From Perkinsus olseni (Eukaryota), in assembly GCA_013115125.1 (NCBI GenBank), contig JABANN010000285.1:1-42786 (forward strand): 42,786 bases of DNA. Direction: 5' to 3'. The notes below the pieces were generated by a model, which did not search any database, had not been told where the DNA came from, and saw nothing but the letters and a program-made list of their open reading frames with translations. Shown piece by piece: positions 6,826-37,374 of the stretch. The number at the start of each line of letters is the position of its first letter. The stretch's first letter is position 1. The position numbers and the translations under genes are program-made.

Positions 6826-6847
6826 CTGCTAGTCTAGCAGTGCTAGA
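6826..6847. repeat. 22-bp inverted-triplication scar (putative hAT excision footprint), 8-mer CTGCTAGA, perfect
   Basis: CTGCTAG-TCTAGCAG-TGCTAGA = N1-7, revcomp(N1-8), N2-8. Confidence 0.85.
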
Positions 6848-6864
6848 GTGACTCTAGTAGAGTC
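6843..6864. repeat. 22-bp scar, 8-mer CTAGAGTC, perfect, overlapping the previous one
   Basis: CTAGAGT-GACTCTAG-TAGAGTC. Confidence 0.85.
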
Positions 6865-6930
6865 GAATTACGAGGACTTCGTTATTCGTTGTCCGAGAAC
6901 TCGCCTCGAAGGATCAGTTCGGCAGACCTT

Positions 6931-7636
6931 ATGATCGCTTGTCGCCCCCTTCGCCTTATCTGCGTTGCCTTCGCGGTCCTACTGTCAACCGTATCCTGCC
7001 TGAAGAGCCAACAGCAGCAAAGGAAGCCAGATGACCTCGAGAATGGAATGACTAACCCTTCTCAGCTTGAACACCGCTGGGCTAAGCCCTCTGAGGGGCG
7101 ACCAGACTACACATTCGTTGCATACGACCCCAAGAAACAGGTAGGAAGCTATTCTTCCTGAGGTTACTAGACTTGGCCGTATGACCGAGTGTCATACTGA
7201 AGCATACTGAGGTCGATGTCTTCAGGATGTAGTGGGGGAGGTTTCTCTCTCTGCAAACGTCAACGTCGAAAAGGTCCGGATGAGCGAAGAGTGGAAGAAC
7301 CGAGGAGCCTTCACGGAGTTGCTTAGACAGATGCTAAAAAACGTGGGTCTATCTGGTCTCCTAAATAGCAACTGCAATTGAATTGGGCGTAGTGCCGTGA
7401 CATTTGTGCTCATTCGCAGGTTCAGAGAGAGAAGTTCAGAATCAAGGAAGCGGTCCACAAGGCTCTCGATAATAAGATTCCAGATGACTTTGAGGAGCTG
7501 TACAAAGAAGCAGGCTTTGAAATTTTCGGTGAGTATAGGTCCTACCGATTTGGTTAAGAGCATCGTTTCAGATGGCGATGGCTATGTTGAAGCTGCTCAC
7601 GATTTCACAAAGTCTGCACAGAAGGTCATTGTGTAG
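6931..7636 (+). CDS. Signal-peptide protein with divergent GNAT acetyltransferase-like fold, paralog 2
   Basis: Four exons (6931-7140, 7226-7342, 7420-~7528, ~7572-7636). N-terminus MIACRPLRLICVAFAVLLSTVSC; TFVAYDPKKQDVVGEVSL...VEKVRMSEEWKNRGAFTELLRQMLKNVQ...FEELYKEAGFEIF follows GNAT motif A/B spacing. Confidence 0.75.
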
Positions 7637-8574
7637 AGTCACTCAGAATAGACTCTCCCACTGCCTCTAGTTGGTCACTGCCTCGCACATTTGAATTACC
7701 TATTGGAAACTTGTAAGTGGGAAATGAAAGATCATCCGAGAGATGTCGGGGATCAGCTGATGCTGCATAGCGCTCTCATATATGTTCACGATACGTCATG
7801 ATGTCCACGGCGCTTGACTTATTTTGTTCGAAGTACTCCAAACTAATGAGCTTGTATCGTAGTAGTGCCGGAGTTACACTCGGGGGTTTAGGTTTTGGTG
7901 GTGAAGTCGAGCGAACCTCTTGCTCGTCTTGCTGCAAGAGGGAATGTAACAGCAGTGCGCTTTCATTAGGACAACAACCGCGTTTCAACGCTCTTTGCCC
8001 CGGGAGGCTGTGACTTTGCGGAACCGCCCCGTAAAGACGCATGTCCTGTGCCATGGGATGGAAGGACTTCCGGGCGACAACAGTCGGCACGCAAGCACGA
8101 AAAAGCGAGCAAGCGAACTGATCGCCTGACTGTTGTGTGCTGTGTTATGTGCTGGACACAGTGTGTCTCATTGCTTTAGCCGCCGGTAGTAATGTGTTAA
8201 CTGTGTTACGTTTTTAATCTGTCGGAGGAACTGTTCCCTCCAACGAGTTGCACTCTAGCACCCTATCAATGATAAAGGGATCGGTGGTGTCGACTGGCTC
8301 AAACGACCAGAACTCTGGAATTCGTCGTTGCTTGCACCGTATCACTGAGTCGTAAATCGTCTACTCACCGCGTGGTCGAAGGCACGCGTATGTTGAATCG
8401 CCCTGCATATTGTCCGTTGCTGATACTGCTTTTCTTAAGTGATGTTCAACTGTCCGCTTCGAACTAACGAACCGTTCGCAGATGCTACAAAGGTTGAAGA
8501 TAGAAGGTTTGATGGCAGCGAAACCTCAGCACCGAACAGAACTGCCGCGAAGACCCGTCGTCATAGCGCAAAAC

Positions 8575-8596
8575 CCGTGCTCAGCACGGCGCGCTG
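8575..8596. repeat. 22-bp scar, 8-mer CCGTGCTG, 1 mismatch
   Basis: CCGTGCT-CAGCACGG-CGcGCTG. Confidence 0.75.
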
Positions 8597-8657
8597 AGTT
8601 GCTGATGGATGATGCACAGAGGACCAGTCACATCAAGCCTTTGCGACAGCGTCTCTG

Positions 8658-8679
8658 CTTGAGTAACTCAACTTGAGTG
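8658..8679. repeat. 22-bp scar, core TTGAGT, 2 mismatches
   Basis: cTTGAGT-AACTCAAC-TTGAGTg. The hexamer triad is perfect; the outer bases disagree with the spacer bases. Confidence 0.6.
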
Positions 8680-8702
8680 GTTACAGAGAGCCTGGGAACC
8701 TT

Positions 8703-8737
8703 GAGGACATGTGCCACATGTCCTCGACCACTGGTCG
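8703..8737. repeat. Two abutting palindromes with 1-nt centres (11-bp and 6-bp arms)
   Basis: GAGGACATGTG-C-CACATGTCCTC (8703-8725) then CGACCA-C-TGGTCG (8725-8737). Confidence 0.8.
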
Positions 8738-8877
8738 GGAAACGATTTGCTATGGAGTTCCGCGCAACCTCGACGCCACAACACATTTCGCCTTTCCAAT
8801 CGATCGATCGCCTCTCGATCGATTACATCGAGCTCCCTAGATTTTCCATCTCTTTCACATCCGCTACCGTCGTTGCG

Positions 8878-9684
8878 ATGATTGCTCACCACCCTAGCTA
8901 TCTCATCTGCGTGGCGTTCGCCCTTCTACCGCTGACCGTTGGATCTCTCAAGAGCCAGAGGCATATCGGAGTGCAAACCGATCCCGAGAAGGGGATGGCC
9001 GACACCCCCCAGCTTGAATACCGCTGGGCTACGCCATCGGAAGGGCGCCCGGACTACACATTCGTGGCTTACGACCCCCAGAAGCAGGTAGGGAGCCTGA
9101 CTCACGCAGGCGTTCTGCATAGAGGCTTGCATCTGTGGTCCAGATAAACAATCTCGGTTGCCATATTTAGGCCATAGTGGGTGAACTGTCATTTACCATA
9201 TTGGCCAAGATCAATGAAGCTAAGATGGACGAAGAACTGGTAGACCGCGGAGTCCCTACCGAGATGCTCGAAGCGATGGTGAAAGCTGTGAGTCCGATTC
9301 GTTTGCAGAGAACCAAGTAGAAGGTTTGCCAAAGGTTGAACAAGTCCTATCACGGGGGAGCTCACTAATCCTAGTCGAAAGCAGGCTTCCTCGGTGTGAG
9401 ACCTGGACTGCCATTGCGCCTACCTAGAGCAGAAGCGAGAACAGACGGCGCTGAGGCAAGCACACTGTCGATCAGATCCCGGGAGTGAAGTTCGAGGTTT
9501 CGGAAGTGGAAAGGAAATGGGACGGCGACGGCTCTTTCGAAGAAGAGGTGTTTGAGGACGTAGGCTTCTTCACCGCAAGTAAGCACAGAACTTCCGAATC
9601 TCAAGAGCTTTTTCTGTTTCAGGTGATGTTTGCGATTATACACTCGTAACTTACAACATACCCCGTCAAGAGAACACGCTGTAG
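8878..9684 (+). CDS. Signal-peptide protein with divergent GNAT-like fold, paralog 3
   Basis: Exons 8878-9087, 9171-9287, 9476-9578, 9623-9684; exons 1 and 2 are the same length as in paralog 2 (210 and 117 nt). MIAHHPSYLICVAFALLPLTVGS...EGRPDYTFVAYDPQKQ|AIVGELSF...EELVDRGVPTEMLEAMVKA|...EVFEDVGFFTA. Confidence 0.75.
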
Positions 9685-10918
9685 GCAGTCAACTGCATCT
9701 GCCGCTGTATGGCCCTTTAGCGTCCCTAATCTCTAAAGACCATCGACCTTCGGGAGTAGTAGTGGCATTATGTGTTGATAGTTGTCCTTGTTCATACCAG
9801 ATGTTATGTACACTTCGCCGCGCTCATGTTTTGAGTCCTTCAGCTTCTTGGTGCGTTTTCTTCCGAACTGTACGAGTTGGCGTTAGCGAATCCTGGACAG
9901 GACCTCATTTTAGAATTGGCGTCGTGGGTTTCAACGAGCAGCGGAATACGGGTAGAAGAGGGCCATTACGGCTCACTTTCGATCCCTTTGAACCACTTGA
10001 AGGGTCCACAAAACTGCGTACCACTTCAACACTACCAGTGCTTGACATAGAACACACCCCACGACTGACCGACCAGGCTTGGGTGTTAGAATGACATCCG
10101 ACGGCCTGTACACAAGCAGTTCATGGACGACAGGACCTTCGTTCTCCCCAATCGGGAGGGCGCTCTCAAACAGGGGCGAATGTTGGGCCATGCGTCACCA
10201 CGAAGATTTCGACAAGTATTTTCACAAACAATGAATATTCAACTGTGAGCAATCGGCGTTGCCAAATACTCAACACCGATAAGCGGCCAAGCTCAACTCG
10301 GCCGCCGCGGTCCGAGCTTTCGGGAGATAGTGTGTCAGGACTTTTAGGAACTTCCGAAGGGGTGGAAGAATGCTGAGCCAAGGTAATCGGACGGCAAATC
10401 AAGCGCATTAGTTCAGCATAGAATGGACTGATGCTACTCTAGAATACGATGCATTATCAGCATTGGCTCAACCGAGGGGCACATTTCCTCTCCTTGACGG
10501 TTGACTCCCCGAAAACGGCCGGGAAAGTTCCCTATGTACCGGCCCACCTGTCCAAGGCGTTTGCGGCTAATCCCAGATGGCCTGGGCCAGGTCACCAGCT
10601 GCTCCCATTCCCAGTACCTCCTAAGACATCGACAAGGAACTACGAGGCACCCATCTCAGCGATACGACAAACGCAAAACTGCCTGTCAGGTGACAACAGT
10701 TGGCAAGCAAACATGACAAAAACAATTCAAGTCCTTAGAGTGGGTTATCCGTATTGTGTTCAACGACTAAGCCACCGCCTGAGCATGCACCTCAATACGT
10801 TAAGGGTTTCTATACAAGTGTTTTGGAAGCCGGGGCAAGAGAGCTCACGCTACTCAGTACCTCTCCTGCAGTTAAGGCTTCCATGAGCTGAGCATCACCC
10901 CTATGCTGGTCGCGGATC

Positions 10919-12751
10919 CTACTGGGTGTCCCGCTGAGCCTCGGGGGACCTTCGTCGTCTGATTCTACCGCTACCTGCCGAGACGACGACCTCAGGCTTC
11001 GGAGAAAACAGGTCCCCCACGGCTACAGTCGACAGACTCCGATGGTCCTCCAACAGTTTGCTGGCTTGCAGAGGCCTGCCAAAATACTCGGTACCCAATC
11101 TAAAGCCAGCAACCTTGGAAGGCCAGGGCTCACCGGCTGCCGCTATAATCAAATTGCTCCTTCTTTGCGGCTGCTCGGGGTGGGGGCGCAAACTTTGATG
11201 AACACGAGTGGAATTTACCTGCGTACGAATCCACAACCAACAACACTTACCAAGCAGTTTCGCTCCACCCGAGAGGACCTCCCACCTACTCTTGGGATAG
11301 AATTTCGGGGCCCAAGGCAGGCCCTCACCTGCTCTCAAGGAGGATGCTCCCCGAGAGTGAAGCAAAGAGCACAGGGGACTGGCTTCTCCCCACGATATCT
11401 CCAAATCCTGATAATATTCCTCAGCGAGTCCTCGGAAGCTTCTCTCCTCACCTGTAGTGCTGACTGGGATATCATTCTAGAGTTCTGCAGCCGCTGTAAG
11501 CAGCGCATCTCCTCTTCCTCAAGCACCGCTAGCTCCGCCTTGTCCGCCTTAGCACTGGCGAGGATGGCCTGAATCAGCCAGCTGAACATTCGGCTGTCTC
11601 CTTGCACACTACAGCCCGCTTTTGCTGAGCTTCCTCTCGCACCCTCCGGAGTTTCTTCTCCTTTTCCGCTTTAACCTGATGCCGTCAGTCGATATTCACG
11701 ATATGCTAACATCCCTAAAAACCGACCTGTAGCTTCGCCTCAATAGAGGCTTGGTGGATCGCCACTGCTCTCTTAGATTTCATAGCCAGATCTCTGGCCT
11801 GGATGAGCAGGTTCAAGTACAGGCGCAATCGTCCTAGGTAAGGACCTCTGTCCTGCGTTTCATCCGCTGGATCTCCGCGCTTTCCTTCCTGGTCTCCCGC
11901 GTAGCTTCCCTCTTAGCAAGCAATACGGCTTCTCTGTTCTTAAGGTGCTAACAGGGAGTGACATCCCGGCCGCCGAACTTTCCCTCATCCCGACCAAACG
12001 CCTTCACTACCTGCTCCTTGGTGATTCCCAAGCTCGTCTTCAACTCAAGTGCCCGCTTGACGTTCTCCGCTTCCCGCTGTCTCCGAGCCTACGTAATCCT
12101 CAATCCGTGCTAACTGGGCCATAACCATACTCCAGTAATACCTTATCGAGCTCCATAAGACTGTGCCGCCTCTGCCTTGCCGATTCCCGGCCCTTCTCCA
12201 GCTTTCTGGTCTGCCTTTTAACCTCGTCTAAATTCCTCCATATCTTATTCTCCTCCCTCTTGAAGTATCTACAAGGCAACAAACGCGTTCTTCCCTCATG
12301 CGCGTCTCGAAACTCCCATCAGTCGCCCCTTCTTCGGGACACTAAATCTCAACTACAGTTTTCTCTCCCCTTAACGAACCCTAACTCGCTCCCTTGCACC
12401 GTTGCTAGCGCGCTGAACGTACGTTATCAGCACAAGTCAATGTTATGAGCATAAGAAGATATACAATAAATCTATGAGATATCATCTGAGGAGGGCATTA
12501 TGTACCCTCTATCGGTCTTTCGGCTATACCGTCCCATGATCAGCAACACTACTACTCCTCCCCTTCCAGTACTACGCTATCCGAGCCTTAACGGCTTGTT
12601 TCTCGGCCGCGATGCTCCGCTGTAGCCTACAGGAGTCCGACAGGCTCAGCCGTTGCTCCATGGAATGATGGAGTAGTTCTTTCGACGACCTCCGCAAAGA
12701 CACAGGGCGTGCGCTAAATACACTGCGCTGCACGAAAACTGCACGAAACAT
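10919..12751 (-). CDS. Multi-exon charged coiled-coil protein, possibly cilium-associated
   Basis: LQRSIAAEKQAVKARIA|YFKREENKIWRNLDEVKRQTRKLEK...; VKAEKEKKLRRVREEAQQKR; AELAVLEEEEMRCLQRLQNSRMISQSALQ. Start may be the ATG at 12751 or ~12661. Confidence 0.6.
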
Positions 12752-13280
12752 GTCAACTTGAACACCCTAAAGTAACGACTGACACAATTTCTAATGGTGA
12801 TTAACAAGGAGCCCCACAGGTTATCCAGGGGGGGAAATCTCTTCGCCTTGCCAAAGCTGCAGTCTGCACGGGTGAGGACGGACTTGTCGACTCTATGGTG
12901 TCGAGTGATAAGCGGCTAGAATCGCCACCTCGCTGGGATTCCGACATCCGTTAAAACGAAGCCCACAGTATTCTGAGCTACACGTGGGCCATGGCTTGAC
13001 TGCTGAGCGTCCGCGTGAGTTTCACTGCGAGTCCTCGAAAGGATGGGCACCCCTCGGTTTGCATCTAGCGCCGCAAACCCATCGGGCATGCTCCCCGAAG
13101 CATATTAGACGTCTTCGGTTGAGCTTTCTCACCGCCCCAACGTCTCAAAGGCACACAACCTACGTAGATCCCCCTCAGGGCCCGAACGTTGCGCCAGTCA
13201 CAGCGAGAACCCACAGAGATAGTCGGCATACTAGTCAGAAGTGAGCTAACTTCCACACTGAAGGGCTCGAAGGTGACGGA

Positions 13281-16169
13281 ATGGAGAATAGTCCCTCCTC
13301 TTCTCACAGGTCGTCTGGGTTCCTGTCGAGCCGCGTCCACTCAACAGTCAATCGTGATCTCCACAACCTTGTTGACCGAGCCTTGGACGAATTTACCTCC
13401 AGTAAGGATTGCCGAACTCCCCGTGTCACAGCGGGCTCTTTCCCAAAAGGCACTACGAGCAGCCCACTCGAGGAGGTGAAAAACATCCTAGCAACAGTTC
13501 GGAAGCAGTACGACGAGACGCACGCTGAGGCTGAGAAAAAGTATCTACTCCATGTGACTGGATACTGGGTATTTACCGCCTTCCAGGCAACGAGAGCTCA
13601 ATCAACTGCGGGAGAGAATACAGGCCGCGGATAATGTCTCACAGGTGCAGCTAAACCCACACTCGGGCGCAGTGCCGAAACCAGCCTGTCCAATTAGGTG
13701 GACACTGACGACATCTTCAGGATGGAAGGTGCCAGGAAGAAGTTGGAGGACCAGCTTCACGAAGTGCAGGGGAAAATAGAGGAAGCCAGAATGAACAAAA
13801 AGGTGTGGCCAGACAGATTTGAATGCTAACCCTCCTCGCGGCCAATTTCATCAATTATGGCGAGGCGGTCGTAGCTGCGCCCGGCCTTTCTTCTCGACTG
13901 GCGACAAGGCTTCTTTTGCAAGGTATATGACCACATGTTGGCGAGGATAAAAAAGGAGTATCTTCACATACGAGAACAGATGTTGAAAGTTGAGAAGCTG
14001 CTAAAGCGTAAAAAAGCAGAGTACAAGGGCAAGGTGAACAAGAGTTCTGGCATGCGATGGGAAGCAACGACATTCAGTCGGAGAAGGCTCGTAGATGGTC
14101 CGAACAACGACAGGCCGCATCGCGCGAATACGAGACGGCGCTGGCCGAGTTGGAGCAGGAAAGGACGGCTCGGGAAGGGGCTCTTGAGGACATGATGGGT
14201 AGGACCCCCCCCCCCCACTATCCTCAGCTGAGCCCGGCCTACCTCCACGAAGCGGGTATTGGTTGTGTTTGGAAGGCTCGCTACAGTCGGTCAAAGATAG
14301 CATCAAAAGGCGGGCTGACTTCGAACGGTGGAGACACGAAGTCGCGGTGGAGGCGGCTAACGAGGTATCCCCATGGCCACGCGAGCGAGGACGTTGAATA
14401 AGTTGTAGGCCTTCAACGCATCCGCTGGGCGCTTGCGTAAGCTGTGGGTGATGGAGAAACTCACCGGCAACTGTCTACAGAAGATTATGGTCGAGCAGGT
14501 TTGGTGCCCTCGTCATTACAGCAAGCGCAATGCGTGCACACTGGTAGGTGCAAAAGTCCCAGGCCACAGAAGATGGCTTCCAAAGGATCCGAGAAGTGAC
14601 GGGCCTCAACGACGTCATGGACATCGTCCACCGCTTCCTTAACCGAGAGCTTGAACAAGTACAGAGTGGATCGGCCTCTCCGGCGCGCTCTCTTGCATTG
14701 CTGTGTTGGCTCCTCAAGACTGAAGGCCGCTTATGACGTATAAGCTCTATTGGTGTATGAGCGCAGAATGCCGTTCTGCATGGCGAATTGAAAAGCCGCT
14801 CCTTTGTACAGTAGGGTGTAGCCTATCCGTCTATAGGACCACCTAAGACAGTGTGTGAAGGATGCCGAGGCGAAGCTCCAAGGGCTCAAGGACGAGAACG
14901 CCAGGTAAACGCATGGGGAAGATGGGGACATTTCTCATAGCACCAATAACATTCTCGGTGGCTGAAGATAGCGCAGACGGAACAGCTAGCTTCACTCGGA
15001 CTCCGAGTCTCGGAGGGTGTATTGTTGCGGGTGAATCAGTCGCCCCATAGGGTCGTCGTCGATCCCAAACGTTCGGGGAAGGCTGCGTGCATGCAGTTGC
15101 CCAGTTGAAGGAGGGGATACCGAGGCATACTATCCGGTAGTCGCTTCAGGCTCCGCGCAGAGGCTGCTGATGCGAACCTATTCGTCCCGAATTCTCCTGG
15201 GGAGGAGCTGCCAGACCCCCTCACCAATGAGGACAGGTATGGCCGCGGTTGCCGCCCAGTCTCAATATAGTACCTATAGGAGCCTCTACATTGAGCTCGA
15301 CGAGCGAGAGCGGCAGTTGGCTAAGGTCAGCTCGGCTCGGTGCTTCCGTTTCGACCTGCTCGGATGCTAGGTCACCAACTCTTTCAATATATCGCGGGAC
15401 CGCCTACAAAAGTCCAGGATAGACGTCGAACACGTCCGCCGTTGGGTAAGATCCGCATGATAATAAACAAAAGCAGCTACTCCGCCTGGAGCTAGGCGGA
15501 GAGAGTGAACAACTCCATGGGAGCGTTTGAGGACCCGGTAGATCTCTCGAGTCCCCAGTGCTACCAGACTTTGGCCCAGTACTTTGAGAGGTGAGCGAAA
15601 CGCGAGCCGAAACCGCCGAGTGGCTGCCCTTCAGGTTGCCTAGGACCATCGAACTCTTCTGTGCACATGTTAAGGAACAGCTGGAAACTGGAAACGTAGG
15701 CCGCTCCGCTTCAGCGGTGAATGGTGTAGTCTCTTCAGCAGGTCCCGATTAGGAGCGCCACGCAGGCCCGATCGATAGCCATTCGTGAGCAAAATGATCT
15801 CCTCAATGACGAGGAGTTCAGCCGGGCCAACTGCCGTGTTCGCTCGGGTAAGTTGCTATCGATATGTGTCCACACTCTTTGCATTTCTCTATGTCTGCTG
15901 GTTGCCGAGTCTCTCAGGAGGGCTCTGCTCCGAGCGATGGTTGCGGAGCTGCCCTTCCTCCGCATACTGCAGGTGCCCCACCACAGGAACCTCCAGTGAT
16001 TCAGGGGCGGGCCAACACCACCGCAGTCCGTAAGGGCGAGATTATTGACGACCAGGATGATGATGAGGATGACGATATCGACGACCCTCGATTCACATCT
16101 GATAGAGCCATTCTGAAGGCGACAAGCTCCACCAGGGTTCACGAAGCGGAGAAGCACTTGAAGAAGTGA
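13281..16169 (+). CDS. Coiled-coil protein resembling outer dynein arm docking complex subunits (CCDC151/ODAD3-CCDC114-like)
   Basis: Many spliced exons; VYDHMLARIKKEYLHIREQ and EDGFQRIREVTGLNDVMDIVHRFLNRELEQ resemble the F..I...TG..D...IV..F motif of ODA-DC proteins. Start uncertain. Confidence 0.6.
14994..15015. repeat. 22-bp scar, 8-mer ACTCGGAG, perfect, intronic
   Basis: ACTCGGA-CTCCGAGT-CTCGGAG inside intron 14905-15149. Confidence 0.85.
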
Positions 16170-16585
16170 GAATTCACTCACTTGCGCCTGCCATGGTTGC
16201 CTGGCAGCTCTGGTGTGCTGAAGAAAAACAAGGCGCCACGGGGATACCTGAAAGGCCGGGCCGCTTGAGAGGCTCCTCTGTCATGTTCATGGGTCTCGAT
16301 GCATCAGCTTGTGGAAGTTGAGTTCCTCGATAGTCGGGTTGGACGCGTATACGGGTAGCCATCATGCCAGGCTTGGCTACATGTAAATGACAACAAGGCT
16401 CGAAAAACGCCCCGAGAGGAGTGCCGAGAAGACATCCAGGCAACTGAAGCCTAACATATCACCTGTTGAGAAGAAGTGAGAAAGACGTCGTTACGTACAC
16501 ACCTATTTCGTGAGACCCGCCGGGCCACGGAGGAGCAGGCCGGCAGGAACCCTTTTCTGAGTATCTCACTCATTGCGGTGAAGGG

Positions 16586-19500: not shown

Positions 19501-19886
19501 ATATCAGTTGGAGGAGCGGAAAATATGAAGTCGTCAATGAAGGTCTTCGAGAGACTTTATTTGTAGCCAAGGGGACTCATGATGTGGATAGCGTTACTCA
19601 ATGGCCACCTCTTGCAGGGACTTTTATCGTCGATTGGAGCGTATGCGAATTCTGAGAGAGCGATACAACGAAGAGCTGCAGCGTCGCCTCGAACGACTGA
19701 GGTGAGCCAGAACGATACCACGCGATGCTTCTTTGTGAACTATCCTTCTCGGCCTTGCCTATTGTCCGCTGTAGATACCCCCTTGATTGGACCACACAAG
19801 ATTCAGTGGAACATTTGGTTGTTCGGTCGTACAACTCGATGTCGTGTCAACGAAGCATGGCTGACCGAGACGAGGATGATCCTTGA
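16586..19886 (+). CDS. Multi-exon coiled-coil hypothetical protein
   Basis: MIRVRFLSDACKDELTLQWLHISEQ...|VILRVAYERLGPAEEELVRMKRKAANTEKRLLM|AVGDHIREIQALKDELQAG...DFYRRLERMRILRERYNEELQRRLERLR|YPLDW...DEDDP*. Confidence 0.55.
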
Positions 19887-20030
19887 CTGCTGCGGTATGA
19901 GATTCGCGTTCCTCAGTCGATGACAAAAACAGGCCACGAGGAGCTGGAAAAATTTTGCTCTGCTGGAACTCGATGATCGTTACGCCAGGTTACCTTGCTA
20001 GTATATCTCATGGAGACCGAAAGTTCAGCA

Positions 20031-20052
20031 CAGGATAGTATCCTGAGGATAC
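20031..20052. repeat. 22-bp scar, 8-mer CAGGATAC, perfect, between convergent genes
   Basis: CAGGATA-GTATCCTG-AGGATAC. Confidence 0.85.
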
Positions 20053-20565
20053 AGGCGGGACTGGAAATTCCCATTTAGAACGCTGAGCTCCAGTTACGGA
20101 TACCGGAACCTCATGCACTGATCGACCAGAAAAAAGGAGTTGAAACCTCGCGTGATGCGTCTTATACCGTCAAGACGCGCTTTTTCTTACTATAACACTA
20201 TGATGGTGAGAAGTTGGTTGTCAGTGTTATCGCTTATAGTTTGGACAGTCCGAGGTCTCGCAGCGTGGTGCCCAGCTGAGGGCGACTGACAGAACGACGG
20301 GTGCGTCTTGCATCCCGCATGCATGTGATTCGAGTGGCCGCGGCGAAAACACCGAGAGGAGGCTTTGCGAGTCTGACGCCCCTGCCTAAGTGCCAGACAG
20401 AGCCTCCACTCATCACTGGAAAGACTCAACACTTCTTCATTATTAGGTGAAGAGTCAATGATGAGAAAAATAAAGCACGGTATTGCCGTGGATGAGGCAA
20501 GCCCAGACGATAGAGTCAACGGTTAATTATACATCAATTGAATGATAGGGAACGATAAAATTGAA

Positions 20566-23500: not shown

Positions 23501-23584
23501 ACTGCTGCTGCTGCTACTCAGCTCAATGACGGGCCCGGTGAAGGCCGCAGCAGCCGTCTGAGGACTGCTCGTGAAAGACCGCAT
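20566..23584 (-). CDS. ATP-grasp ligase (L-amino-acid-ligase/NikS-like family)
   Basis: Motifs DKALMQRCLAAKGL, PLVVKPANSGGCDGV, VMQEYLG, EFIVNTVSVDGHHLLSDIW, YAFKVLDATGVRNGAAHTEIM, CLIEVNARVAG, KTCDLISSPGVIIM. Ser-rich N-terminus. Ends approximate. Confidence 0.85.
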
Positions 23585-24126
23585 CTTCCGCTACAGAACT
23601 GCTGAGAAGTGACCGGAACAGCTCCGCTATATCCAGAGGCGTCGAAATCCTTCAAGCAGATCATGCTTTCATTTCGTGTCCCCGTGAGTTACAAGGCGAC
23701 TACCCTCTCGCGAAGACCTTTTCTAGTCTGACGGCGTGCCCTCTGCCCAGAGCTGACGTACCCACTCATACCAAACTTCCGTGAATGCCAGGCATTACGG
23801 TGAACACAAGGGCGCATGTCGGAATAATTTGAAATTAGAATGGCAATGGTCATATGGGAATGATGCAGAATAGTGTCAACCTAGACATAGTGTAACAATA
23901 GTGTTAAAAACTATACAAACCGATACAACCCCTTCCTCAAGGTGCCCCAACGAAGCCCCCCAGCAACAGAGAGACGTCCTGCTGGTCCACTTCTGGAGGC
24001 AAGCGGCGGCTCTCACCGTAGCGACGCAGGTACCCGGGGTGCTGCAGTATGTCGGGCATCGGACCGTGAATCTCGAACTGTATCGTCCATTTCGCTGACA
24101 AAGAATGGCATGCGGATATTCCAGAA

Positions 24127-24700
24127 TTACCAGTAGACCGGAGCCTGTAAACACCCGGGACATCGTTAACGCTGAGTGCCGCAAACTAGGTGTTGAACTG
24201 ATGCGCACACCTCGACTTGACGACATAGACGACCATAGAAGGAGATTCTAACGTGGATCACTCCCGTACTTCCCAAGCCCGAGACATAGCCATAAAATTG
24301 ACAAGTCATCTCAGCCATGCGAGACCTACCTAGAAAAAGTGCTCCTATAATTATTGCGGATATGAGTAGCGTCTTCTTAGCAGCCGCACTCGTTATCCGT
24401 TGCATCTCTCTCGCCTGAGCGTCAGGGTCTGGAGGTAACCGATGGCCTGCGGGAGATGATGGCAGAACGATCGAGGCGTGGACGCGTACCGTTCCCATCC
24501 TGGCCAGCTAGCAGGGGCTCGTCCTGTGCGCCGGCAGTCATGGCGGCATGCCGTGCTGCTAACATGAACGATAACGCAGCCATGGGGAAGCTCAGTAAGA
24601 GCTCTCGCTCTACCGAATCAACAAACAACAAACTCCCTACGAGGATGATCATGCCAGGGACAAGGCGGCTGGGGTAGAACGCCGACGCTGAGAAGGCTAC
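24127..24700 (-). CDS. Small membrane protein, unknown
   Basis: Hydrophobic segments MIILVGSLLFVD, LLLSFPMAALSFMLAA and KTLLISAIIIGALFLG. Boundaries uncertain. Confidence 0.35.
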
Positions 24701-25099
24701 TCGAGTCGGGTCACTCGACGGACATAAGAATGACTAGCTTCACCCTCAGAGGTACGGTCGAAATGAACCCGGGTAGAGGTATCCCAGAATCACATTGATT
24801 GATCGGCCATCACAACCAAGATGTCTAGGGCGTCGACTTTGCGAGACCTCAAACCACTGAGAAGCCTTCAGCTCTACTATTATAGACTCGCTTTGCAAGA
24901 AGACCTTCAACTCCGCCAAACCTGGGATGGACGTTTCGGGTTTACATACATTCCACAGCCCCGCCGACCACCATCAGTCTCAACCCACCCATGCACTGGA
25001 ACCCAAGAAGCGTTTCAATCTCATAAGAATGACCCAGTGGCGCGACACTGCAGGTAAGAGCGACACTATTCGACAGACGACGAAGACAGATCACCATCA

Positions 25100-26999
25100 C
25101 TACTGCTGCTGGTGCTGCTGCTGCTCCTTCAGAACGTAAGGTACAACAAACTCTCGGAGGAAATAGGTGTGTACCTGAGATGGCATCCCTTCGACCAGCC
25201 CAACTGAACTCCAATTAGTGAGAGAATGACTACGACTTCGGGAGCTACAGAGTGCTACTGTATGCTTTTGGATTTCCTTCCTCTCGACTAGCACACGATC
25301 GAAAAGCGGCGCTGCGTGACACCGCGGAGACCTATGTTTCTCAGCAATTCCCCAACAGTCTGCGGGCTCCTCGAAATCTCTGCGACAGACTATATGACAG
25401 AGTGCCCCCGGTAGTACAGTATGGTCATCCGTAAGCTCAGGATGGAAGCACGTGACCATCATGTTGTCCTCCTTAGCTGCGCATATAAGAGGGCCATCGA
25501 ATGAGGGATGGTGAATAGTACCTGGCAGATGATCAGGAATCCTAGGTCCACGAGGAGCTCCCATAAATGATGTTCTATCAAGAGTGCATTGAGCTAGTCG
25601 ACAACGAGAGATTCATCAGGTTCACTGGGTTCGGGTTCACTGGGTTGACTTCGTCCCTATTCCTCGGTTCATCAGCATAAAGCTCCCACCCAAACTTACC
25701 TAGTACCGTCACCTTCTCAGGGTCCACATCAAGAATCGCCGGTGCTCGGATAAAGACAGCCGGGACATCGGCGAAAATCTGAAAGGGGGAGGGTGGATGC
25801 GTCTCGGGGGGAGGAGGCCGGGACTTACGCAACCCTCATCAATGGACGCCTCGAAAGAATTCAATTGACGGCCAAAGTAGTTGCGGGAAACCCTGATGTC
25901 CATGACGCCAATAGGATTGCCGTATCTGATAGATCACATCATCATCACCACATTGGAACAGCACACGAGGCAGAGTAGTGCACCGCGCGGCCGACTATCC
26001 AGAAGCAGACAGAGGAGGGGCGCTCGCTAGGGAGCCGCGAAGTGTGTCCGTCGGTTTCAGGGTGTAATAAGTAAGCGCCGAAATCTCCGTCCCTTGACTC
26101 ACTTGCATTCGGTGTGCTCCACTATTGCTCCAGATGCATCCCTACTACTCTGGCAAACAGTCTTGGCGAGGAGGATGGTGCCAGCACACGTTCCCCAGAT
26201 GGGACGACCGGAGAGGGCGAATTGCCTGCAGGGAAGGAAGCGATGCGGAGAGCAGCTGCTGAGTAAACTATCTCATCTACGACGCAGGGCTCTCGCCCCA
26301 TAACAAATGGTATGACCGGAAGATGTTAAACAGTCACGGAGGGAGAAGAAGCGAACTGTCAGAAACGAAGGCCATGAAGTCGGCCCGGGATGATAGAAAG
26401 TTATGCCTGAGGAGCTTCATCTTGATGGGCTCGCCCGTGACGGAAAATCCACTCGACCCATGCAGTACCTCATTCCCTCGACAATATCATCCTCTCCACC
26501 CTCAGAGATGATCTTCATAGCAGTGGACTCGCCACCAGGAATGATAAGACCATCACATGCATTCAACTCAGCTATAGTACGAACCTGAAAAGCAATATGA
26601 TTTACCGCGCGCCACGAAATAGATCTCCCATTACCTCGCAGGGAGTGATCTTGACTCCCTTCAGATCGAGCTTACTGAGGACGATGCAGTGCTCCGAGAA
26701 CGCTCCTTGCAAAGCCAGGACACCAACACGAACCTAAGAGGCCGATAAAGCCGTGCACGCTTATCACCAACTACAAACGGTAGCGAGCTTTTCTTAAGTA
26801 ACCTTCGCTTCAAATTAAAGAGCGTCAAAGACAGAATGGAATAGAGTTTCGGAGGGCTAGCACTGGCCCAGTGCCACTGGGTCGAGCAACAAGCACTGGT
26901 TAACCACGCCAGCAGTACCTCCAAGCTATCGGCCGCTCCTTTCGATGCTGTTACTGGGGCTAGGTTGGAGGGACACACGTTGGAGGCAATGCACGACAT
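25100..26999 (-). CDS. PDX2: Pyridoxal 5'-phosphate synthase glutaminase subunit (SNO/PdxT)
   Basis: VGVLALQGAFSEH, DGLIIPGGESTAM, PIWGTCAGTILLA, VSRNYFGRQLNSF, AVFIRAP, TCFHPELTDD|VHTYFL; catalytic Cys-His-Glu present. Ends in QQQHQQQ. Confidence 0.95.
26860..26881. repeat. 22-bp scar, 8-mer GCACTGGG, perfect, in PDX2 intron 1
   Basis: GCACTGG-CCCAGTGC-CACTGGG inside intron 26734-26918. Confidence 0.85.
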
Positions 27000-27181: not shown

Positions 27182-29680
27182 TTATTGAGTCTTTTTAGAT
27201 GCATCAACCTGACTAGGCTTGCCCCGCCTTAGCAGCATCGACACGCTGAACAGGATGTAGAGGACTATAAACACGCACCAGCCGATCTGAGAACGGGCAA
27301 CCTCAACATGTCCAGCAACAGACGATCTTCGACACCAGTTTCAGCGAGAAAGTCCAAGCTAAATCCTCACCTTGTTCTCCCTCGGGACGGGTGGCATCTC
27401 GGGCAGGGTCTTGAAGATGAGAACATCTTCACTTATAATAGTAAGGCAAAAGACCTACACAGCAGGACTCTGCATCACCAGCTGACACAAGGCTACGTAC
27501 CAAGCACTGAGTGCCGAGCCTGGTGACATTGGGGTCCAGCATATACATATAGTACTGGCGGACAGTGGGAATAGCGGCAAGTATCATGAGAGCGAGACGA
27601 CCCTGGAACAACCATCACTACGCCGACCGTGGTGTGCGGTCATTACCATGACGAAGGGATGCTCGGTGGGGATGTACAGGTTGAGCTTCAACATGAAGAG
27701 ATTAAGATCCACCAACATGCACACTAGCATCATCAGCTGCATACCGAAGTACCTCACAAGCACCGCGAAACTGGTTGCAGGTGTGAAAGTAGCAAAAATA
27801 CCTCTTCACTGTGAGCATGTCCTCCCATTCCACATGCATCCATGATTCTGGCGTGAACTGCATCACCGAACGCTTCAGCTGAGATGAAAACGGGCATGGC
27901 TAATCCCTCACTCGATGAAGGGTATATCGCTCTACCTTGGCTCCTAGAGTAGGCGCGTCGAAGATGCTGGACCAGTGATACTCCTTAAACTCGAGGTAAC
28001 TGAGAGAAGTGCCCCGACCGGGGATCGAACCCGGGACCTCTAGGTGCTCCCTACTTGCAAAGGTACAGTCCAATCTCGATACCAATGCCGTTGCAGAGAA
28101 GGACGTCCATCACCCAGGAGTCCCACCAGCACTCAGCGAAATTGGGAACGGCGAACACTGAAAGGACAAGGCACACCTCCCGTCAACACAGTAACAGCCG
28201 AATGGACGAGCAATGCCTAGGAGCCCTCGTGACTCTTCGACACTTGCCCCCTGCGCGCAGCAATCGGACCGCATGCAAATCTTAATGAGCTCTATGTGCT
28301 CACAGCGATGCACACGGTGAGTCGATCCTTAATAGATGAATCGGTGTGGAATAAAATACGGATAAGGATATTTTTGACTGTTTCAGGCGGGAGCCCAGCA
28401 CATTCGGGGAACCATGCGTGCCAAGGTGTCCGTCAAGTGACAGAGTGGAGCTAAGATACCTCAACTCACCGAGAGATTTCTCCACGAACTCCCAGCCGAC
28501 AGAGAAGAACCAGCAGAACATCCTATTGCGGAATAAAAGGCCCTTCACTATCCATCCGAAGAAGTGTCCGATAACGAATCTGAACAGCAGCAGGCGGAGC
28601 GATGCAGCAATGTCAGTCGTGTATCGCTGACTACATGTCCAACTTTGACTTCACATTGTCCCACGTTAGCGCACAGTCCTCTGCGTAGAAGGGCAGGGGG
28701 TGCCACCTGAGCGGCGTTGCAAGATGATGGTGAGCAGACGCAGCCGGTGAGGACGGTGAAGATACCCGGGAGGACCGAGCCAAGGCTTACTCGCCCATTG
28801 AGGGATCCAGACCGTGCAGAAGATTCCTGAGCTGCTCAGGGGTGAGGAACAGGGCCCATACGACACCCAGCAGATAGAGGAAGTTGAGACCTGAGGAAAT
28901 CCAGTAGATCTCACCACCCGACAGACCATAACAAAAGTGCCGCAGACGCCGTATTACCGAAAACTATCTTCCAGAATGCCGGGTGGGGCCGGACGAAAGG
29001 ACCGCTAGGGAAGGCGAAGAGGCCGACAACCAAATACAGCGCTACCACGAAGGGGAGGCCTCGTACTAAGTTTTGGGAGAGATCTGAGTATCACGACGAT
29101 ACTCCCCTCCTCACCAGTATCGCTGCTACTACCATTGGCTTCAGCGTCCGCGCCATGCTTGATCGTATAGTAGTATATCAACGCCATGGCCGCAATAAGC
29201 ACGAACAGACTATGGGACTCGTAGAACCTACCACACAGACGCCATCTGTCGGGGCCTCGGGAATGGGGGTGACCTACCAGGGTACGGTGATATCGGGCAC
29301 TGGCCGATGCTCTAAGTTGGCTATGGCATCCTCGTACCTACAATAGGGAAGATCTCACAGTACGCCTATGGGGCAATCGAAGATCTACTCTTCCCCGACG
29401 AAGGGTAAGAACGCGAGCGAACTAAAGCGCTGGCGACACGGATCTAGAAGCCTGGGCATTGCAGACTCGAAATGACCCACGCTCTCTGAAAAACTCGGCA
29501 TCTCTTCGCTCCGCCTTACTCTTGATTATATATTCTATCTTTTCGACTGGCATCAGTAGGCGAGCCGATACTCCCTGATCGTGGACGGTGTGACGACTCT
29601 TCCGTATCCTTCGAAGGGCCCATCGGTGGCGCCCCTCTGCCGTGAAGCGGTCTTGATGATGTTGAGGACGATGATGTCAT
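27182..29680 (-). CDS. PSS: Phosphatidylserine synthase, base-exchange type (PTDSS/PSS family)
   Basis: [100 protein letters not shown]. Confidence 0.93.
28010..28044 (-). pseudogene. Orphan tRNA 3' half (Phe/Thr/Met-like) filling a 55-nt PSS intron, sense to host
   Basis: CCTAG-AGGTC-CCGGG-TTCGATC-CCCGG-TCGGGGC-A: variable loop, perfect T arm, acceptor strand and discriminator, within intron 28000-28054. No 5' half found. Confidence 0.8.
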
Positions 29681-34649: not shown

Positions 34650-35054
34650 AATGGTAAGCTTCGGAGAGGGCGGCAAGACAGACTGAATGAGAGAAAGGGA
34701 AAGCGCGATACGGCCGGACGAGACCATCGATGCTTTGCCGTCTTCCGACTACACTACTGACCAGGATTGAGGAGATCGAACAAAACCCCTCTGTCTGGCG
34801 AAAAGGGACGATGACGTGATCGACTAAGTGCATAATGATCATCATACACGAAATGTGTGAGAGCTGATAATATGAAACGACGTATCCTCAAGGTTCGCTC
34901 TAACAGATTTGGTGCAAACGCGTCCACGGCCATACCGTCTGCCAGGGGGGGGCTCGCCGCTCTCGGCTTGACTCGGCATAAAGCACACGGCGAGGGGCCA
35001 TCTACTCATGGAGAACCAAAGATCAAGGCAGCGGGATTCTAGAGGACGGCCCCT

Positions 35055-35076
35055 GTTACGACTCGTAACTTACGAA
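35055..35076. repeat. 22-bp scar, 8-mer GTTACGAG, 1 mismatch
   Basis: GTTACGA-CTCGTAAC-TTACGAa. Confidence 0.75.
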
Positions 35077-35474
35077 GGAAATGCTCGATGTGAATGAGCT
35101 CAGCGAGAAGCTGCTTGAAGATGGGGCATCAAGCCTCAGGGCGCTTGCCAGCACCGATACGGTTGTGTAATCCGCGGACTACTTGTGCAACAACTTGGGC
35201 CGAGTGGACTAGACTCGGACCTGTGCGTCGGGACTCGGACGTGACTTCAATCTTAGTGTTATTATCCAGTTTAATGTTACACTGTAGTGGTAGCATCCAC
35301 AGGGGTAGTAGTAGAGTTGGTAATGATGACGGCAAGAGGCGGACAAGAATACACAGAACGTGTCAAGGCACCCAACAGTAGCAGGAGATGTAGACAAAGC
35401 CGCTACGACTAGGAAGGAATCTTGACTTGACATTTTCCCAAGCTGGCTTCTCTAAGGGACAGCCAACCTTCTAG

Positions 35475-36791
35475 TCACAACGGCGTGGGGCAAAAGGGCA
35501 CACTCGACGACGGTGTCAGTGACAAATGCATCAGCTTAGTCGATATAGAAGCGAGAACTGCTCGGGGTGGCCGGAGAGGATACATGGCTGGAATTGAATC
35601 CTCCGCTGGTGAAGCTGCTCGAGTGGCTCCGGGCTCTGAAGCAAGATAAGGAGTAACAGACGAAGCGACCTCCACACTATAGCCCCTACGCAGTGATGGC
35701 ACGTGGAGCAGAGCTTCGCTTAGAGGTCCTCCAACTGTCGAATCTGTCCTCACCCGCAGCCGTCATGTCCACAGGGAGCTGCACTGGGCTGGCCACGAAT
35801 GTGCTGCTGTAACCGCTTTCCGTGGCGGTCGTGGAGATGCTCCCGAAGTCTGCTCCCATAGTGGGACTCGCGTACGCCGCCTACCAACAGGCAGGATAAG
35901 CAAACACCCTCGCCGAGGACCTCACCTCTGCGTGCGGAACAGAAGCATCAGGACACCGCGAGAGACCGCTCGCTAGTCCGGGCATTTTGCCGTAGCCAGC
36001 GAAGTCACCGCATCGCGGCGGAGGAGGCGAGAGGTGGCGTCCCCTGACACAAAAGGGCGTGAAAAGCCTCAAAGACACTGTCCTTACCTGGTGTCGGGCT
36101 TGAACTCTGGCGCATCGGCATTGAGACCGCCACTGCCGCCGAGAGCGTCGAAGTCAGACGAGGACAGGGCCTTCTGCTTAGAGAGGTAGTAGAGAGCGTT
36201 ATGCTTGTTCTTGTGCCACTTGTTGCAAGCCTTGTAGGCTTGCCACACCGACGACCCGCCGTGACCAAGTTCCCTTATGAACGCCATGGGGACCTGAGAA
36301 AGGACCATCAGACTGCTTCACGACCATGCCCTTACATCAGAGAAGCTCTCGCGCCTTGTACGTTGATCGCCCACCGCTGAGGCTCCTGCTGCTAGAGGCC
36401 TGACGTGCTCAAGAATTTGATAGCTGACATCGGTGGTGGGCAGGTCGATGTCGACGTTGAGTTCCACTTCATAGGTGGCAGATACTGTATTGTATTTTAC
36501 GTGAACGAGGCTGCTCGCTCGGGCTTTTACCGGCATCCTCGTGGTGCCCAAGACGGTTCCGGAACCGCCATCGCTGCGGCTGCATCGCTCCGCCGGGACG
36601 TAAACTATCCTCCTTTCGCCATCATCGCTGTCGGAGGACGAAGTGGACGGACGAGTGAGCTGCTTGAGAAGGTCCTCGACCGGTACTGAGATCCTCGCGT
36701 GAACCGAAGTTGTTCCAGAAACAGGATCTTCCGCACTTGAGTCGGGAGACATCTCCCGGCAGCCTGACTCACTGCCGTAACTGCTGGACAT
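35475..36791 (-). CDS. PAM2-motif protein, paralog A
   Basis: First two introns at the same positions as in paralog B. LNADAPEFKP at 36096-36125; Ser/Pro-rich tail. Confidence 0.75.
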
Positions 36792-37352
36792 GGTTATGTA
36801 AAGGATACACCAACATGAATAGATGTTCGTTACCCCCGTTTCGACCCTGACAAACTACCTAAAAGTCCCACGGGCGATCTACGACGGAAAGGCGATGAAA
36901 CGAATCATGCGCGGACGTCTGGGTCTGTGTCGGACCAAGACTGTCCCTCTCTACGTTAAGATACGCCTCGGACGATGGCCTTGGCATCCTCGGGAGCTCG
37001 GCTAGTCGGCCAGCTCAGCTCTAGTACAAGGCTTAATGTTGAAGGAGTTGCTACGGCGGTACGAGGGACGTTGAGGAAACACGAGGAATCTCAAGATTTG
37101 CAAGATTGTTACCATTTGCCCGGCTCTTTCGCAAAAAAGAAGACTCCACAGCCAATTCTGGGTTTCGCAATCAATTTACTGAACGGGGGTACACGTTCTC
37201 CCTCGGGATTCTCTTCAGGTCTCCTCTCCACGCGAACGACACTTCCTCACAGGCCCCCGCTGTTGTGCAGTGGTTCACTGCAGTCCTTGCTATGTCCAGC
37301 ACCGAAAGGGTCTGGCTGTAAACGGATGAAAAGAGATCCTCTTTATACGCTG

Positions 37353-37374
37353 CTTCGATCATCGAAGTTCAATG
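37353..37374. repeat. 22-bp scar, 8-mer CTTCGATG, 1 mismatch
   Basis: CTTCGAT-CATCGAAG-TTCaATG (CG to CA change). Confidence 0.75.

What the first reader, a model, noticed from the sequence alone, without database searches (positions are those of the whole stretch)
6826..37374. Recurrent stereotyped 22-bp scars (N1-7 + revcomp N1-8 + N2-8): candidate hAT-type excision plus hairpin-annealing repair system
SEEN: nine non-coding sites with unrelated sequence but identical grammar. Perfect at 6826, 6843, 14994, 20031 and 26860; one mismatch at 8575, 35055 and 37353; two at 8658. An 8-mer fixes the other 14 bases, so a perfect match has chance about 4^-14 per position, or about 1.6e-4 per window at uniform composition; five were found by eye. 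KNOWN: hAT transposases (Ac, Tam3, Hermes) make 8-bp TSDs and nick 1 nt into the flank, leaving hairpins on the donor DNA. INFERENCE: opening the two hairpins gives ABCDEFG-hgfedcba and hgfedcb-ABCDEFGH, whose 3' ends are complementary over 8 nt. Annealing and fill-in yields exactly this 22-mer, including both spacer bases. Reported hAT footprints are usually heterogeneous, so one uniform product about every 5 kb suggests microhomology-dominated repair (weak or absent Ku-NHEJ) after a large transposition wave, or programmed excision by a domesticated transposase. The net +14 bp frameshift would explain absence from exons.
Basis: partly seen in the sequence, partly recalled or inferred. Interest (0 to 1): 0.92.

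Follow-up and report, generated by a model that had tools for sequence, protein, structure and literature searches.

The report
Uniform 22-bp transposon excision scars
A Perkinsus-like parasite genome carries many unrelated 22-base "forward-reverse-forward" insertions that look like the repaired holes left when a cut-and-paste (hAT-type) transposon jumped out, giving a readable record of past transposon visits and of how this organism mends broken DNA.

Summary
All nine sites fit the grammar N1-7 + revcomp(N1-8) + N2-8 with the stated mismatch counts, and three more 2-mismatch sites exist (4221, 10572, 24698). Five perfect 22-mers compare with 0 in 30 simulated sequences. Only k=8 is enriched among k=4-12, and no other arm/gap geometry occurs.

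At site 14994, contigs of two divergent runs of the same species label lack exactly 14 bp, leaving the lone 8-mer. This scar lies in an intron. An independently assembled contig carries all the scars in the 20 kb that were laid.

The grammar matches the published hallmark of hAT excision: palindromic P-nucleotides centred on the complement of the base next to the element (PMC5873905), on an 8-bp target duplication. The join is across the unfolded hairpins by up to 8 nt of microhomology.

No element, TIR or transposase was found in the window, and no genome was available. The element itself, the Ku/NHEJ status and "programmed excision" are therefore untested.

Verdict: real, best read as hAT-type excision footprints of unusual uniformity and density (about 1 per 3.6 kb). 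It is a new variant of a known kind.

The parts
4221..4242 (.). degenerate scar (2 mismatches), inferred target GTGTGAAC
6826..6847 (.). perfect scar, target CTGCTAGA; overlaps the next scar by 5 nt
6843..6864 (.). perfect scar, target CTAGAGTC; with 6826 it reconstructs from one ancestral 11-mer in either order of events
8575..8596 (.). scar with 1 mismatch, target CCGTGCTG
8658..8679 (.). scar with 2 mismatches (both at the outer, least redundant positions), core TTGAGT
10572..10593 (.). degenerate scar (2 mismatches), inferred target CCCAGGTC
14994..15015 (.). perfect scar, target ACTCGGAG; lies in an intron of the gene encoding P0001; polymorphic: 14 bp (14995-15008) absent in contigs of runs X7 and X8
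20031..20052 (.). perfect scar, target CAGGATAC; about 150 bp downstream of the last coding exon of the P0001 gene (ends 19883)
24698..24719 (.). degenerate scar (2 mismatches), core ACTCGAC; inside an RNA-like contig of run X9 (24489-24984, 0 differences), so transcribed non-coding sequence
26860..26881 (.). perfect scar, target GCACTGGG
35055..35076 (.). scar with 1 mismatch, target GTTACGA(G)
37353..37374 (.). scar with 1 mismatch (CpG to CpA in the third arm), target CTTCGATG

Best explanation
Each 22-mer is the repaired donor site of a cut-and-paste DNA transposon of hAT-type chemistry that once sat at that 8-mer.

Step 1 (inferred): the element inserted at ABCDEFGH and duplicated it, giving an 8-bp TSD.

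Step 2 (established for hAT elements, not shown here): on excision the transposase nicks 1 nt into the flank and seals each flank as a hairpin. The hairpins are ABCDEFG-h-gfedcba on the left and hgfedcb-A-BCDEFGH on the right. Each apex is therefore the complement of the base that touched the element.

Step 3 (inferred): host nucleases open the hairpins away from the apex. The unfolded 3' tails carry hgfedcba and ABCDEFGH, which are complementary only within the TSD. They anneal, flaps are trimmed, 7-nt gaps are filled and the nicks are ligated.

Every pair of opening positions whose unfolded tracts sum to 8 nt or more converges on the same product, ABCDEFG hgfedcba BCDEFGH (net +14 bp). That explains the uniformity without a fixed nick site.

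Opening near the apex followed by annealing of the direct TSD copies would restore the 8-mer exactly and leave no trace.

Step 4 (shown): the product is the 22-mer, the alternative allele is the bare 8-mer, and scars decay by point mutation.
For: - Strict k=8 with 0 sites at k=7 or k=9.
- Only odd-centred geometry occurs. [quoted passage not shown]
- hAT elements make 8-bp TSDs with target preference nTnnnnAn (PMC10368747, passages).
- The 12 inferred targets show a two-fold-symmetric bias. T2/A7 is 11 of 24 (expected 5.6, P=0.013), G2/C7 is 0 of 24, and S at positions 1/8 is 18 of 20 (P=6e-4).
- The empty-site allele differs by exactly 14 bp in X7 and X8 at 14994.
- Among all hairpin-model products, only the one with total P-tract = 8 is enriched, 5 vs 0.
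- Long P-tracts (arms up to 20 nt) and microhomology-guided joining after hairpin opening are documented for Ac/Ds in yeast and Arabidopsis.
- Scars cluster (spacings 17 and 83 bp, P=0.009). Two independent events hit one ancestral 11-mer, as expected for insertion hot spots.
- Where it could be judged, sites are non-coding: intron, downstream region, transcribed non-coding sequence. Removing the 14 bp restores no long frame.
Against: - No element with TIRs and an 8-bp TSD is in the 42.8-kb window. The strict scan gave 0 hits. The relaxed scan gave 1 hit, rejected because it spans an RNA-supported exon.
- No ORF is longer than 341 aa, and 18 ORFs scanned against Pfam gave no transposase domain.
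- hAT elements in Perkinsus were not documented in the passages I could read. Only Dada and Merlin-related sequences were.
- Experimental and natural hAT footprints are normally heterogeneous. There were 28 types in Candida, and 8 of 94 excisions of all transposon superfamilies were perfect in rice. One uniform product is atypical.
- Allele evidence exists for 1 of the 8 sites in the laid stretch. Only 12 of 161 indel rows were printed, so the other 7 are unknown.
- The target bias rests on 12 sites, and the T2/A7 test would not survive correction for 16 tests.
- The 1-nt nick offset of Hermes is recalled (Zhou et al. 2004); that paper was not read here.
Confidence: 0.62

Rival explanations
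1. The route is the same (flank hairpins unfolded and annealed across the TSD), but the element belongs to another superfamily with 8-bp TSDs: a Mutator-like element, a Merlin-like element (Merlin-related transposase ORFs exist in Perkinsus marinus), or an undescribed family.
For: - MULE Muta1 forms hairpins on flanking DNA and has 8- or 9-bp TSDs (PMC5499845, passages).
- Merlin elements make 8- or 9-bp TSDs. Two conserved Merlin-related ORFs without recognisable TIRs or TSDs are reported in P. marinus (PMC8101967, passages).
- No hAT element was shown here.
Against: - 12 of 12 sites are at k=8 and 0 at k=9, whereas MULE and Merlin TSDs vary between 8 and 9.
- More than 90% of Muta1 excisions in yeast were precise, and the authors consider its gap repair distinct from hAT.
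- The odd-centre signature is documented for hAT. I found no nucleotide-level nick position for MULE, and I know of no excision biochemistry for Merlin (recalled).
Confidence: 0.17
2. Transposon-independent mutation: a polymerase template switch or snap-back synthesis at a nick or break copies 8 nt of the opposite strand and then returns, giving forward-reverse-forward.
For: - Forward-reverse-forward triplications by iterative template switching are known at larger scales (PMC11293582, listing and abstract only).
- No transposon was found in the window.
Against: - A switch mechanism has no reason to use exactly 8 nt with 1-nt offsets at both turns in 12 of 12 events. There is nothing at k=5-7 or 9-12 above background and no other gap geometry.
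- It does not predict a two-fold-symmetric target bias or two hits in one 11-mer.
Confidence: 0.1
3. Programmed (developmental) elimination: a domesticated transposase removes germline-limited elements, and the assembly shows the processed genome.
For: One uniform junction type is reminiscent of programmed excision systems. Conserved Merlin-related ORFs without TIRs in P. marinus were suggested to be possibly domesticated.
Against: - At 14994 the other strains carry the virgin 8-mer, not an element and not the scar.
- Scars carry 0, 1 or 2 mutations, as neutral relics of different ages would, whereas junctions re-made each generation should stay perfect.
- No germline/soma nuclear dualism is known to me in Perkinsus (recalled).
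Confidence: 0.04
4. Assembly or sequencing artefact.
For: Short palindromes can be created by some library or polishing artefacts.
Against: - Logan contigs of runs from 2 studies and 3 samples hold 0.99-1.00 of the sampled words.
- The X2 contig of 37,300 bp matches 6500-26499 with 0 differences, and the X9 RNA-like contig carries the 24698 scar.
- Mutated copies and an allelic 14-bp difference are not expected of artefacts.
Confidence: 0.01

Closest known systems
Ac/Ds (hAT) excision footprints in yeast, Candida and Arabidopsis (Weil & Kunze 2000; Yu et al. 2004; Huefner et al. 2011; Lazarow et al. 2012, as cited in PMC5873905 and PMC1978519)
   Same: An 8-bp TSD is retained. Palindromic P-nucleotide tracts are centred on the complement of the base next to the element. 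Hairpin opening is followed by microhomology-guided joining, and arms of up to 20 nt occur in yeast.
   Different: Those footprints are heterogeneous (28 types among 128 Candida revertants). Here a single product dominates, the full 8-nt inversion joined in register, with 0 enrichment of shorter products. These are natural, heritable and partly polymorphic scars at about 1 per 3.6 kb in a perkinsozoan. I could not read Yu 2004, Lazarow 2012 or Huefner 2011 (not held; supplements closed), so I cannot say whether this exact 22-bp product is among their listed footprints.
V(D)J coding joints / Transib (RAG-type hairpins with P nucleotides)
   Same: Flank hairpins, off-apex opening, palindromic additions.
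   Different: As recalled, RAG and Transib cut flush with the signal, so the palindromes are even, and Transib TSDs are 5 bp. Here the palindromes are odd-centred on an 8-bp unit, and no even-geometry triple exists.
MULE Muta1 excision (PMC5499845)
   Same: Flank hairpins and 8-9 bp TSDs.
   Different: Excision is mostly precise in yeast and the TSD length varies. Here the unit is strictly 8.
TSD-derived microhomology repair of mPing excision sites (PMC4561436; title and abstract seen in listings only)
   Same: The TSD supplies the microhomology that determines the repair product.
   Different: There the direct TSD copies anneal and restore the site precisely. Here the annealing is between unfolded hairpin tails and adds 14 bp.

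Membership tests
hAT-type excision footprint | Derived from an 8-bp target-site duplication | tested here: met
   Grammar enriched only at k=8 (5 perfect, 8 with <=1 mismatch; 0 at k=6, 7, 9-12). hAT TSD = 8 bp (Table 1).
hAT-type excision footprint | Palindromic additions centred on the complement of the flank base that adjoined the element (1-nt offset hairpin) | tested here: met
   Positions 8 and 15 equal the complements of positions 22 and 1 in all 5 perfect sites. Only the 1-nt-centre geometry occurs. The feature is as worded in PMC5873905.
hAT-type excision footprint | Empty-site allele is the single 8-mer | tested here: met
   14 bp left out at 14995 in X7 (depth 75.2 of 75.2, 1 contig) and X8 (38.3 of 38.3, 1 contig). 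Shown for 1 of 8 sites in the laid stretch; the rows for the other sites were not printed.
hAT-type excision footprint | Occupied allele or resident elements: TIR element flanked by the 8-bp TSD | tested here: not met
   None in the window. Strict scan 0 hits; relaxed scan 1 hit, rejected. Absence from 42.8 kb does not test the genome.
hAT-type excision footprint | hAT transposase (BED finger, DDE, hAT dimerisation domain) in the genome | not testable with these tools
   No genome is held. 18 window ORFs gave no transposase domain in Pfam.
hAT-type excision footprint | Target preference nTnnnnAn | tested here: inconclusive
   T2/A7 in 11 of 24 (expected 5.6, P=0.013 uncorrected) and G2/C7 in 0 of 24. 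Only 12 sites.
MULE / Merlin footprint | TSD of 8-9 (MULE typically 9) bp | tested here: inconclusive
   0 sites at k=9 versus 12 at k=8. An 8-only family cannot be excluded.
Programmed DNA elimination junction | Same junction in all individuals, with the element present in germline DNA | tested here: not met
   Site 14994 is a bare 8-mer in X7 and X8, and scars carry mutations. Germline or life-stage reads were not available.

The most novel reading that the evidence does not exclude
In Perkinsus, breaks capped by transposase-made hairpins are joined only through microhomology. No effective classical end joining acts on these ends. A highly mobile but low-copy hAT-like element, or MITEs driven by a domesticated hAT-like enzyme, has visited on the order of 10^4 sites. 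The uniform 22-bp scars would then be a sizeable, datable class of indel polymorphism, about one scar per 390 point substitutions by the steady-state estimate. They would give a genome-wide fossil record of excision that no other eukaryote is known to keep so cleanly.
Probability: 0.3. Interest if true: 0.8.

Novelty: new variant of a known kind. Interest (0 to 1): 0.64.

Why it matters
Excision events of cut-and-paste transposons are normally invisible or too messy to count, so rates of excision in nature are poorly known. A single recognisable scar would change that.

- Every past visit that ended this way could be counted and roughly dated by its decay.
- Insertion hot spots could be mapped without the element being present.
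- The share of indel polymorphism caused by transposon traffic could be measured.
- The break-repair repertoire of a little-studied alveolate lineage could be inferred from sequence alone.

The scars also supply a simple marker class (8-mer versus 22-mer alleles) for strain comparison.

Tried and rejected
- Whole-genome search: no genome is held.
- Earlier scan notes: nothing for this genome or its relatives, nothing for similar scars, and the Perkinsus word hits concern other genomes.
- TIR/TSD element search: 0 strict hits. One relaxed hit, 24644-25535 (TSD GATGATCA, TIR 9/10), was rejected. It contains the RNA-supported SNO/Pdx2 exon 25414-25518, and its right 'TIR' overlaps a splice donor.
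- Repeat D1/D4 near four scars was first suspected to be a transposon. It is better read as paralogous exons ending in CAG|GTAGG.
- Half-scars: isolated 7-nt-arm odd palindromes outside the sites number 5 vs 2.8 expected, so there is no excess.
- Classical short footprints (TSD-TSD with 0-2 central bases) are at background. Power is low for these short forms.
- Pfam on 18 ORFs gave only a weak SNO hit. The longest ORF has no homologues.
- Metagenome scans with scar flanks and with P0001 found nothing.
- No RNA holder was listed by the look-up of sequencing runs. X9 behaved as spliced RNA when laid.
- Papers not held: PMC321453 (Yu 2004) and PMC4105704 (Hickman 2014).
- Literature searches for this exact product or for a genome-wide description found none. 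A search for Perkinsus + Ku70 + end joining found 0 papers.
- The allele state of the other seven sites in the laid stretch is unknown, because only 12 of 161 indel rows were printed.
Full report
OBSERVATION. The mismatch counts are as stated: 0 at 6826, 6843, 14994, 20031 and 26860; 1 at 8575, 35055 and 37353; 2 at 8658. The grammar is its own reverse complement, so one scan covers both strands.

I scanned k=4-12 against 30 first-order-Markov simulations of the window. Only k=8 stands out, with 5 perfect sites (simulated mean 0.0) and 8 with at most one mismatch (0.033). There are no perfect sites at k=6, 7 or 9-12, and k=4 and k=5 are at background.

A generalised scan for forward-gap-reverse-gap-forward triples (arms 5-8, gaps 0-4) found only the geometry with single-base centres, at 7 loci that all belong to the set.

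Scoring mismatches over the redundant positions gave 5, 3, 4 and 5 sites with 0, 1, 2 and 3 mismatches. Twenty simulations gave 0, 0, 0.35 and 3.2. About 12 sites are therefore real; the extra ones are 4221, 10572 and 24698. That is one per about 3.6 kb.

NOT AN ARTEFACT, AND POLYMORPHIC. Six public runs from two studies hold 0.99-1.00 of the sampled words of window 6500-15500, and three further runs hold about 0.2.

I laid four runs on 6500-26499. A 37,300-bp contig of X2 matches the whole 20 kb with 0 differences, so the scars are in read-derived contigs made independently of this assembly. The source sample of the window is not known, and X2 may be related to it.

The two divergent runs X7 and X8 carry the same species label and differ at roughly 1,700 listed positions in 20 kb. 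Both have '14 left out' at 14995 (X7 depth 75.2 of 75.2; X8 38.3 of 38.3; one contig each). This turns the 22-mer into the bare 8-mer ACTCGGAG, which is the empty-site allele the model predicts.

Only 12 of 161 indel rows were printed, so the state of the other seven sites in that stretch is unknown. It is not shown to be the same as the reference.

CONTEXT. The window is from an intron-rich eukaryote. X9 gives spliced contigs with GT..AG introns of 43-243 nt on the minus strand between 20.6 and 26.5 kb.

A coding-like ORF hits two proteins that their source names as Perkinsus olseni hypothetical proteins. P0001 has 82% identity and sits on a contig of 42,784 bp. By tblastn, P0001 maps to 13281-19883 on the plus strand as a multi-exon gene.

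- Scar 14994 lies in the intron between exons ending at 14905 and starting at 15148, both 100% identical.
- Scar 20031 lies about 150 bp beyond the last coding exon.
- Scar 24698 is inside a transcribed but non-coding stretch (X9 contig 24489-24984).
- The pairs 6826/6843 and 8575/8658 lie in non-alignable sequence upstream of paralogous exons.
- Deleting the 14 bp restores no unusually long open frame at any site. All gains are within the random 95th percentile.

ANATOMY AND MECHANISM. The 22-mer consists of two overlapping 15-nt odd palindromes. Their centres, positions 8 and 15, are the complements of the last and first bases of the 8-mer. [quoted passage not shown]

hAT elements make 8-bp target duplications with preference nTnnnnAn (PMC10368747). 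The 1-nt offset of the first nick is recalled from Zhou et al. 2004, which I did not read here.

With that offset, the left flank becomes the hairpin ABCDEFG-h-gfedcba and the right flank becomes hgfedcb-A-BCDEFGH. If the hairpins are opened off-apex, the unfolded 3' tails carry hgfedcba and ABCDEFGH. The two flanks share nothing but the target duplication, so this is their only complementarity. Annealing, flap removal, 7-nt fill-in on each side and ligation give ABCDEFG hgfedcba BCDEFGH.

I enumerated all products of the form ABCDEFG + i apex-proximal bases + j apex-proximal bases + BCDEFGH. Every split with i+j=8 is the same 22-mer, and larger i+j reach it through i+j-8 nt of microhomology. 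A fixed nick position is therefore not needed to explain the uniformity.

Products with i+j between 3 and 7 would need joining without microhomology. They were seen 0 times (expected at most 0.1 each). The shortest forms sit at a background too high to judge.

Opening near the apex and annealing the direct copies of the duplication would restore the 8-mer and be invisible. The pattern therefore argues for microhomology-dependent joining, which is inference.

Long P-tracts (arms up to 20 nt, and 47% of footprints with arms of 3 nt or more) and microhomology use are reported for Ac/Ds in yeast. [quoted passage not shown]

FURTHER SUPPORT. The 12 inferred targets are unrelated in sequence but show a two-fold-symmetric bias:
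- S at positions 1/8 in 18 of 20 (P=6e-4).
- T at position 2 / A at position 7 in 11 of 24 (expected 5.6, P=0.013 uncorrected).
- G2/C7 in 0 of 24.

This is what a dimeric transposase acting on target DNA would give, and it echoes nTnnnnAn, but n is small.

The scars cluster. Spacings of 17 and 83 bp among 12 sites have P=0.009. The overlapping pair 6826/6843 is reproduced exactly by two events on one ancestral 11-mer, in either order.

The roughly flat 5:3:4 series of 0, 1 and 2 mismatches, together with one polymorphic perfect scar, suggests activity spread over time rather than a single burst. A neutral steady-state estimate gives about one scar-forming event per 390 point substitutions (inference).

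WHAT IS MISSING. No element was found.
- A strict scan for 8-bp direct repeats bracketing 14-nt inverted termini gave 0 hits.
- A relaxed scan gave one hit that I rejected because it contains an RNA-supported exon.
- No ORF exceeds 341 aa.
- 18 ORFs gave no transposase domain in Pfam.
- No genome is held, so hAT transposases, MITEs, Ku, Lig4, Artemis and Pol theta could not be looked for.
- In the passages I read, Perkinsus marinus is reported to carry Dada elements (6-7 bp duplications, tRNA targets) and Merlin-related ORFs without recognisable ends. hAT was not documented there.
- Two metagenome scans for further alleles or relatives found nothing.

RIVALS.
- Another hairpin-forming superfamily with 8-bp duplications cannot be excluded. 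MULEs form flank hairpins, and Merlin is present in the lineage. However, both vary between 8 and 9 bp, while all 12 sites here are at 8. Muta1 excision is mostly precise.
- A transposon-free template switch does not explain the strict 8-nt unit, the 1-nt centres, the symmetric target bias or the double hit.
- Programmed elimination is disfavoured by the virgin 8-mer allele in other strains and by mutated scars.
- An artefact is excluded for practical purposes.

COMPARISON AND NOVELTY. The chemistry and the repair logic are known from experimental Ac/Ds work. Three things differ:
- A single product dominates. Known hAT footprints are heterogeneous: 28 types among 128 Candida revertants, and only 8 of 94 natural excisions of all transposon superfamilies were perfect in rice.
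- The scars are natural, heritable and partly polymorphic, and they are dense.
- The host is a perkinsozoan.

My searches found no description of such uniform genome-wide scars. The key yeast and Arabidopsis papers were not held and supplements are closed, so the 22-bp product may already be listed among experimental footprints. I rate it a new variant of a known kind.

VERDICT. Confidence that these are hAT-type excision footprints joined through the unfolded target duplication is about 0.62. Including any 8-bp-TSD hairpin-forming transposon, it is about 0.8.

Noticed in passing
window 8703-8725: A 23-nt odd palindrome with 11-nt arms around a single C, about 25 bp past scar 8658. About 0.01 is expected by chance for arms of 11. 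It could be a one-sided long P-nucleotide tract with loss of the other flank, or an unrelated palindrome; the sequence to its right does not repeat the putative target.
   Followed up: partly
window 5853-5877, 7033-7149, 8980-9096: Three related segments (about 80% identity between the two longer ones), all ending in CAG|GTAGG. They are probably exons of tandemly duplicated paralogous genes on the plus strand. Contigs of X7 and X8 run on unlike the window just past 9096 and 7149.
   Followed up: partly
window 28007-28040 and 39239-39272: tRNA-3'-half-like fragments (68-79% identical to each other and to the 3' half of tRNA-Pro at 3975-4046). Neither Rfam nor ARAGORN calls them as tRNAs. They may be tRNA pseudogenes or remnants; Dada transposons target tRNA genes in Perkinsus marinus.
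   Followed up: no
window 24445-26500, minus strand: A very highly covered spliced gene in the RNA-like run X9 (depth 1,800-6,000), with short exons and introns of 50-243 nt. One exon (25414-25518) weakly matches the SNO/Pdx2 glutamine amidotransferase family (E=3.8e-4, below the Pfam cut-off).
   Followed up: partly
window 25289-25411 and 25579-25661: In introns of that gene, X7 and X8 replace 121 bp and 81 bp of the reference with 27 and 24 other letters. The second segment contains a tandem duplication of GGTTCACTGGGTT-like units. No TIR or TSD is evident.
   Followed up: partly
window 23490-23518 and 25095-25128: CTG/TGC trinucleotide-rich tracts where contigs of several runs break or fit two places.
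   Followed up: no
window 2367-3350: The longest ORF of the window (327 aa from ATG) has no Pfam family and no homologue among proteins of 179-573 aa. It is probably not coding.
   Followed up: yes
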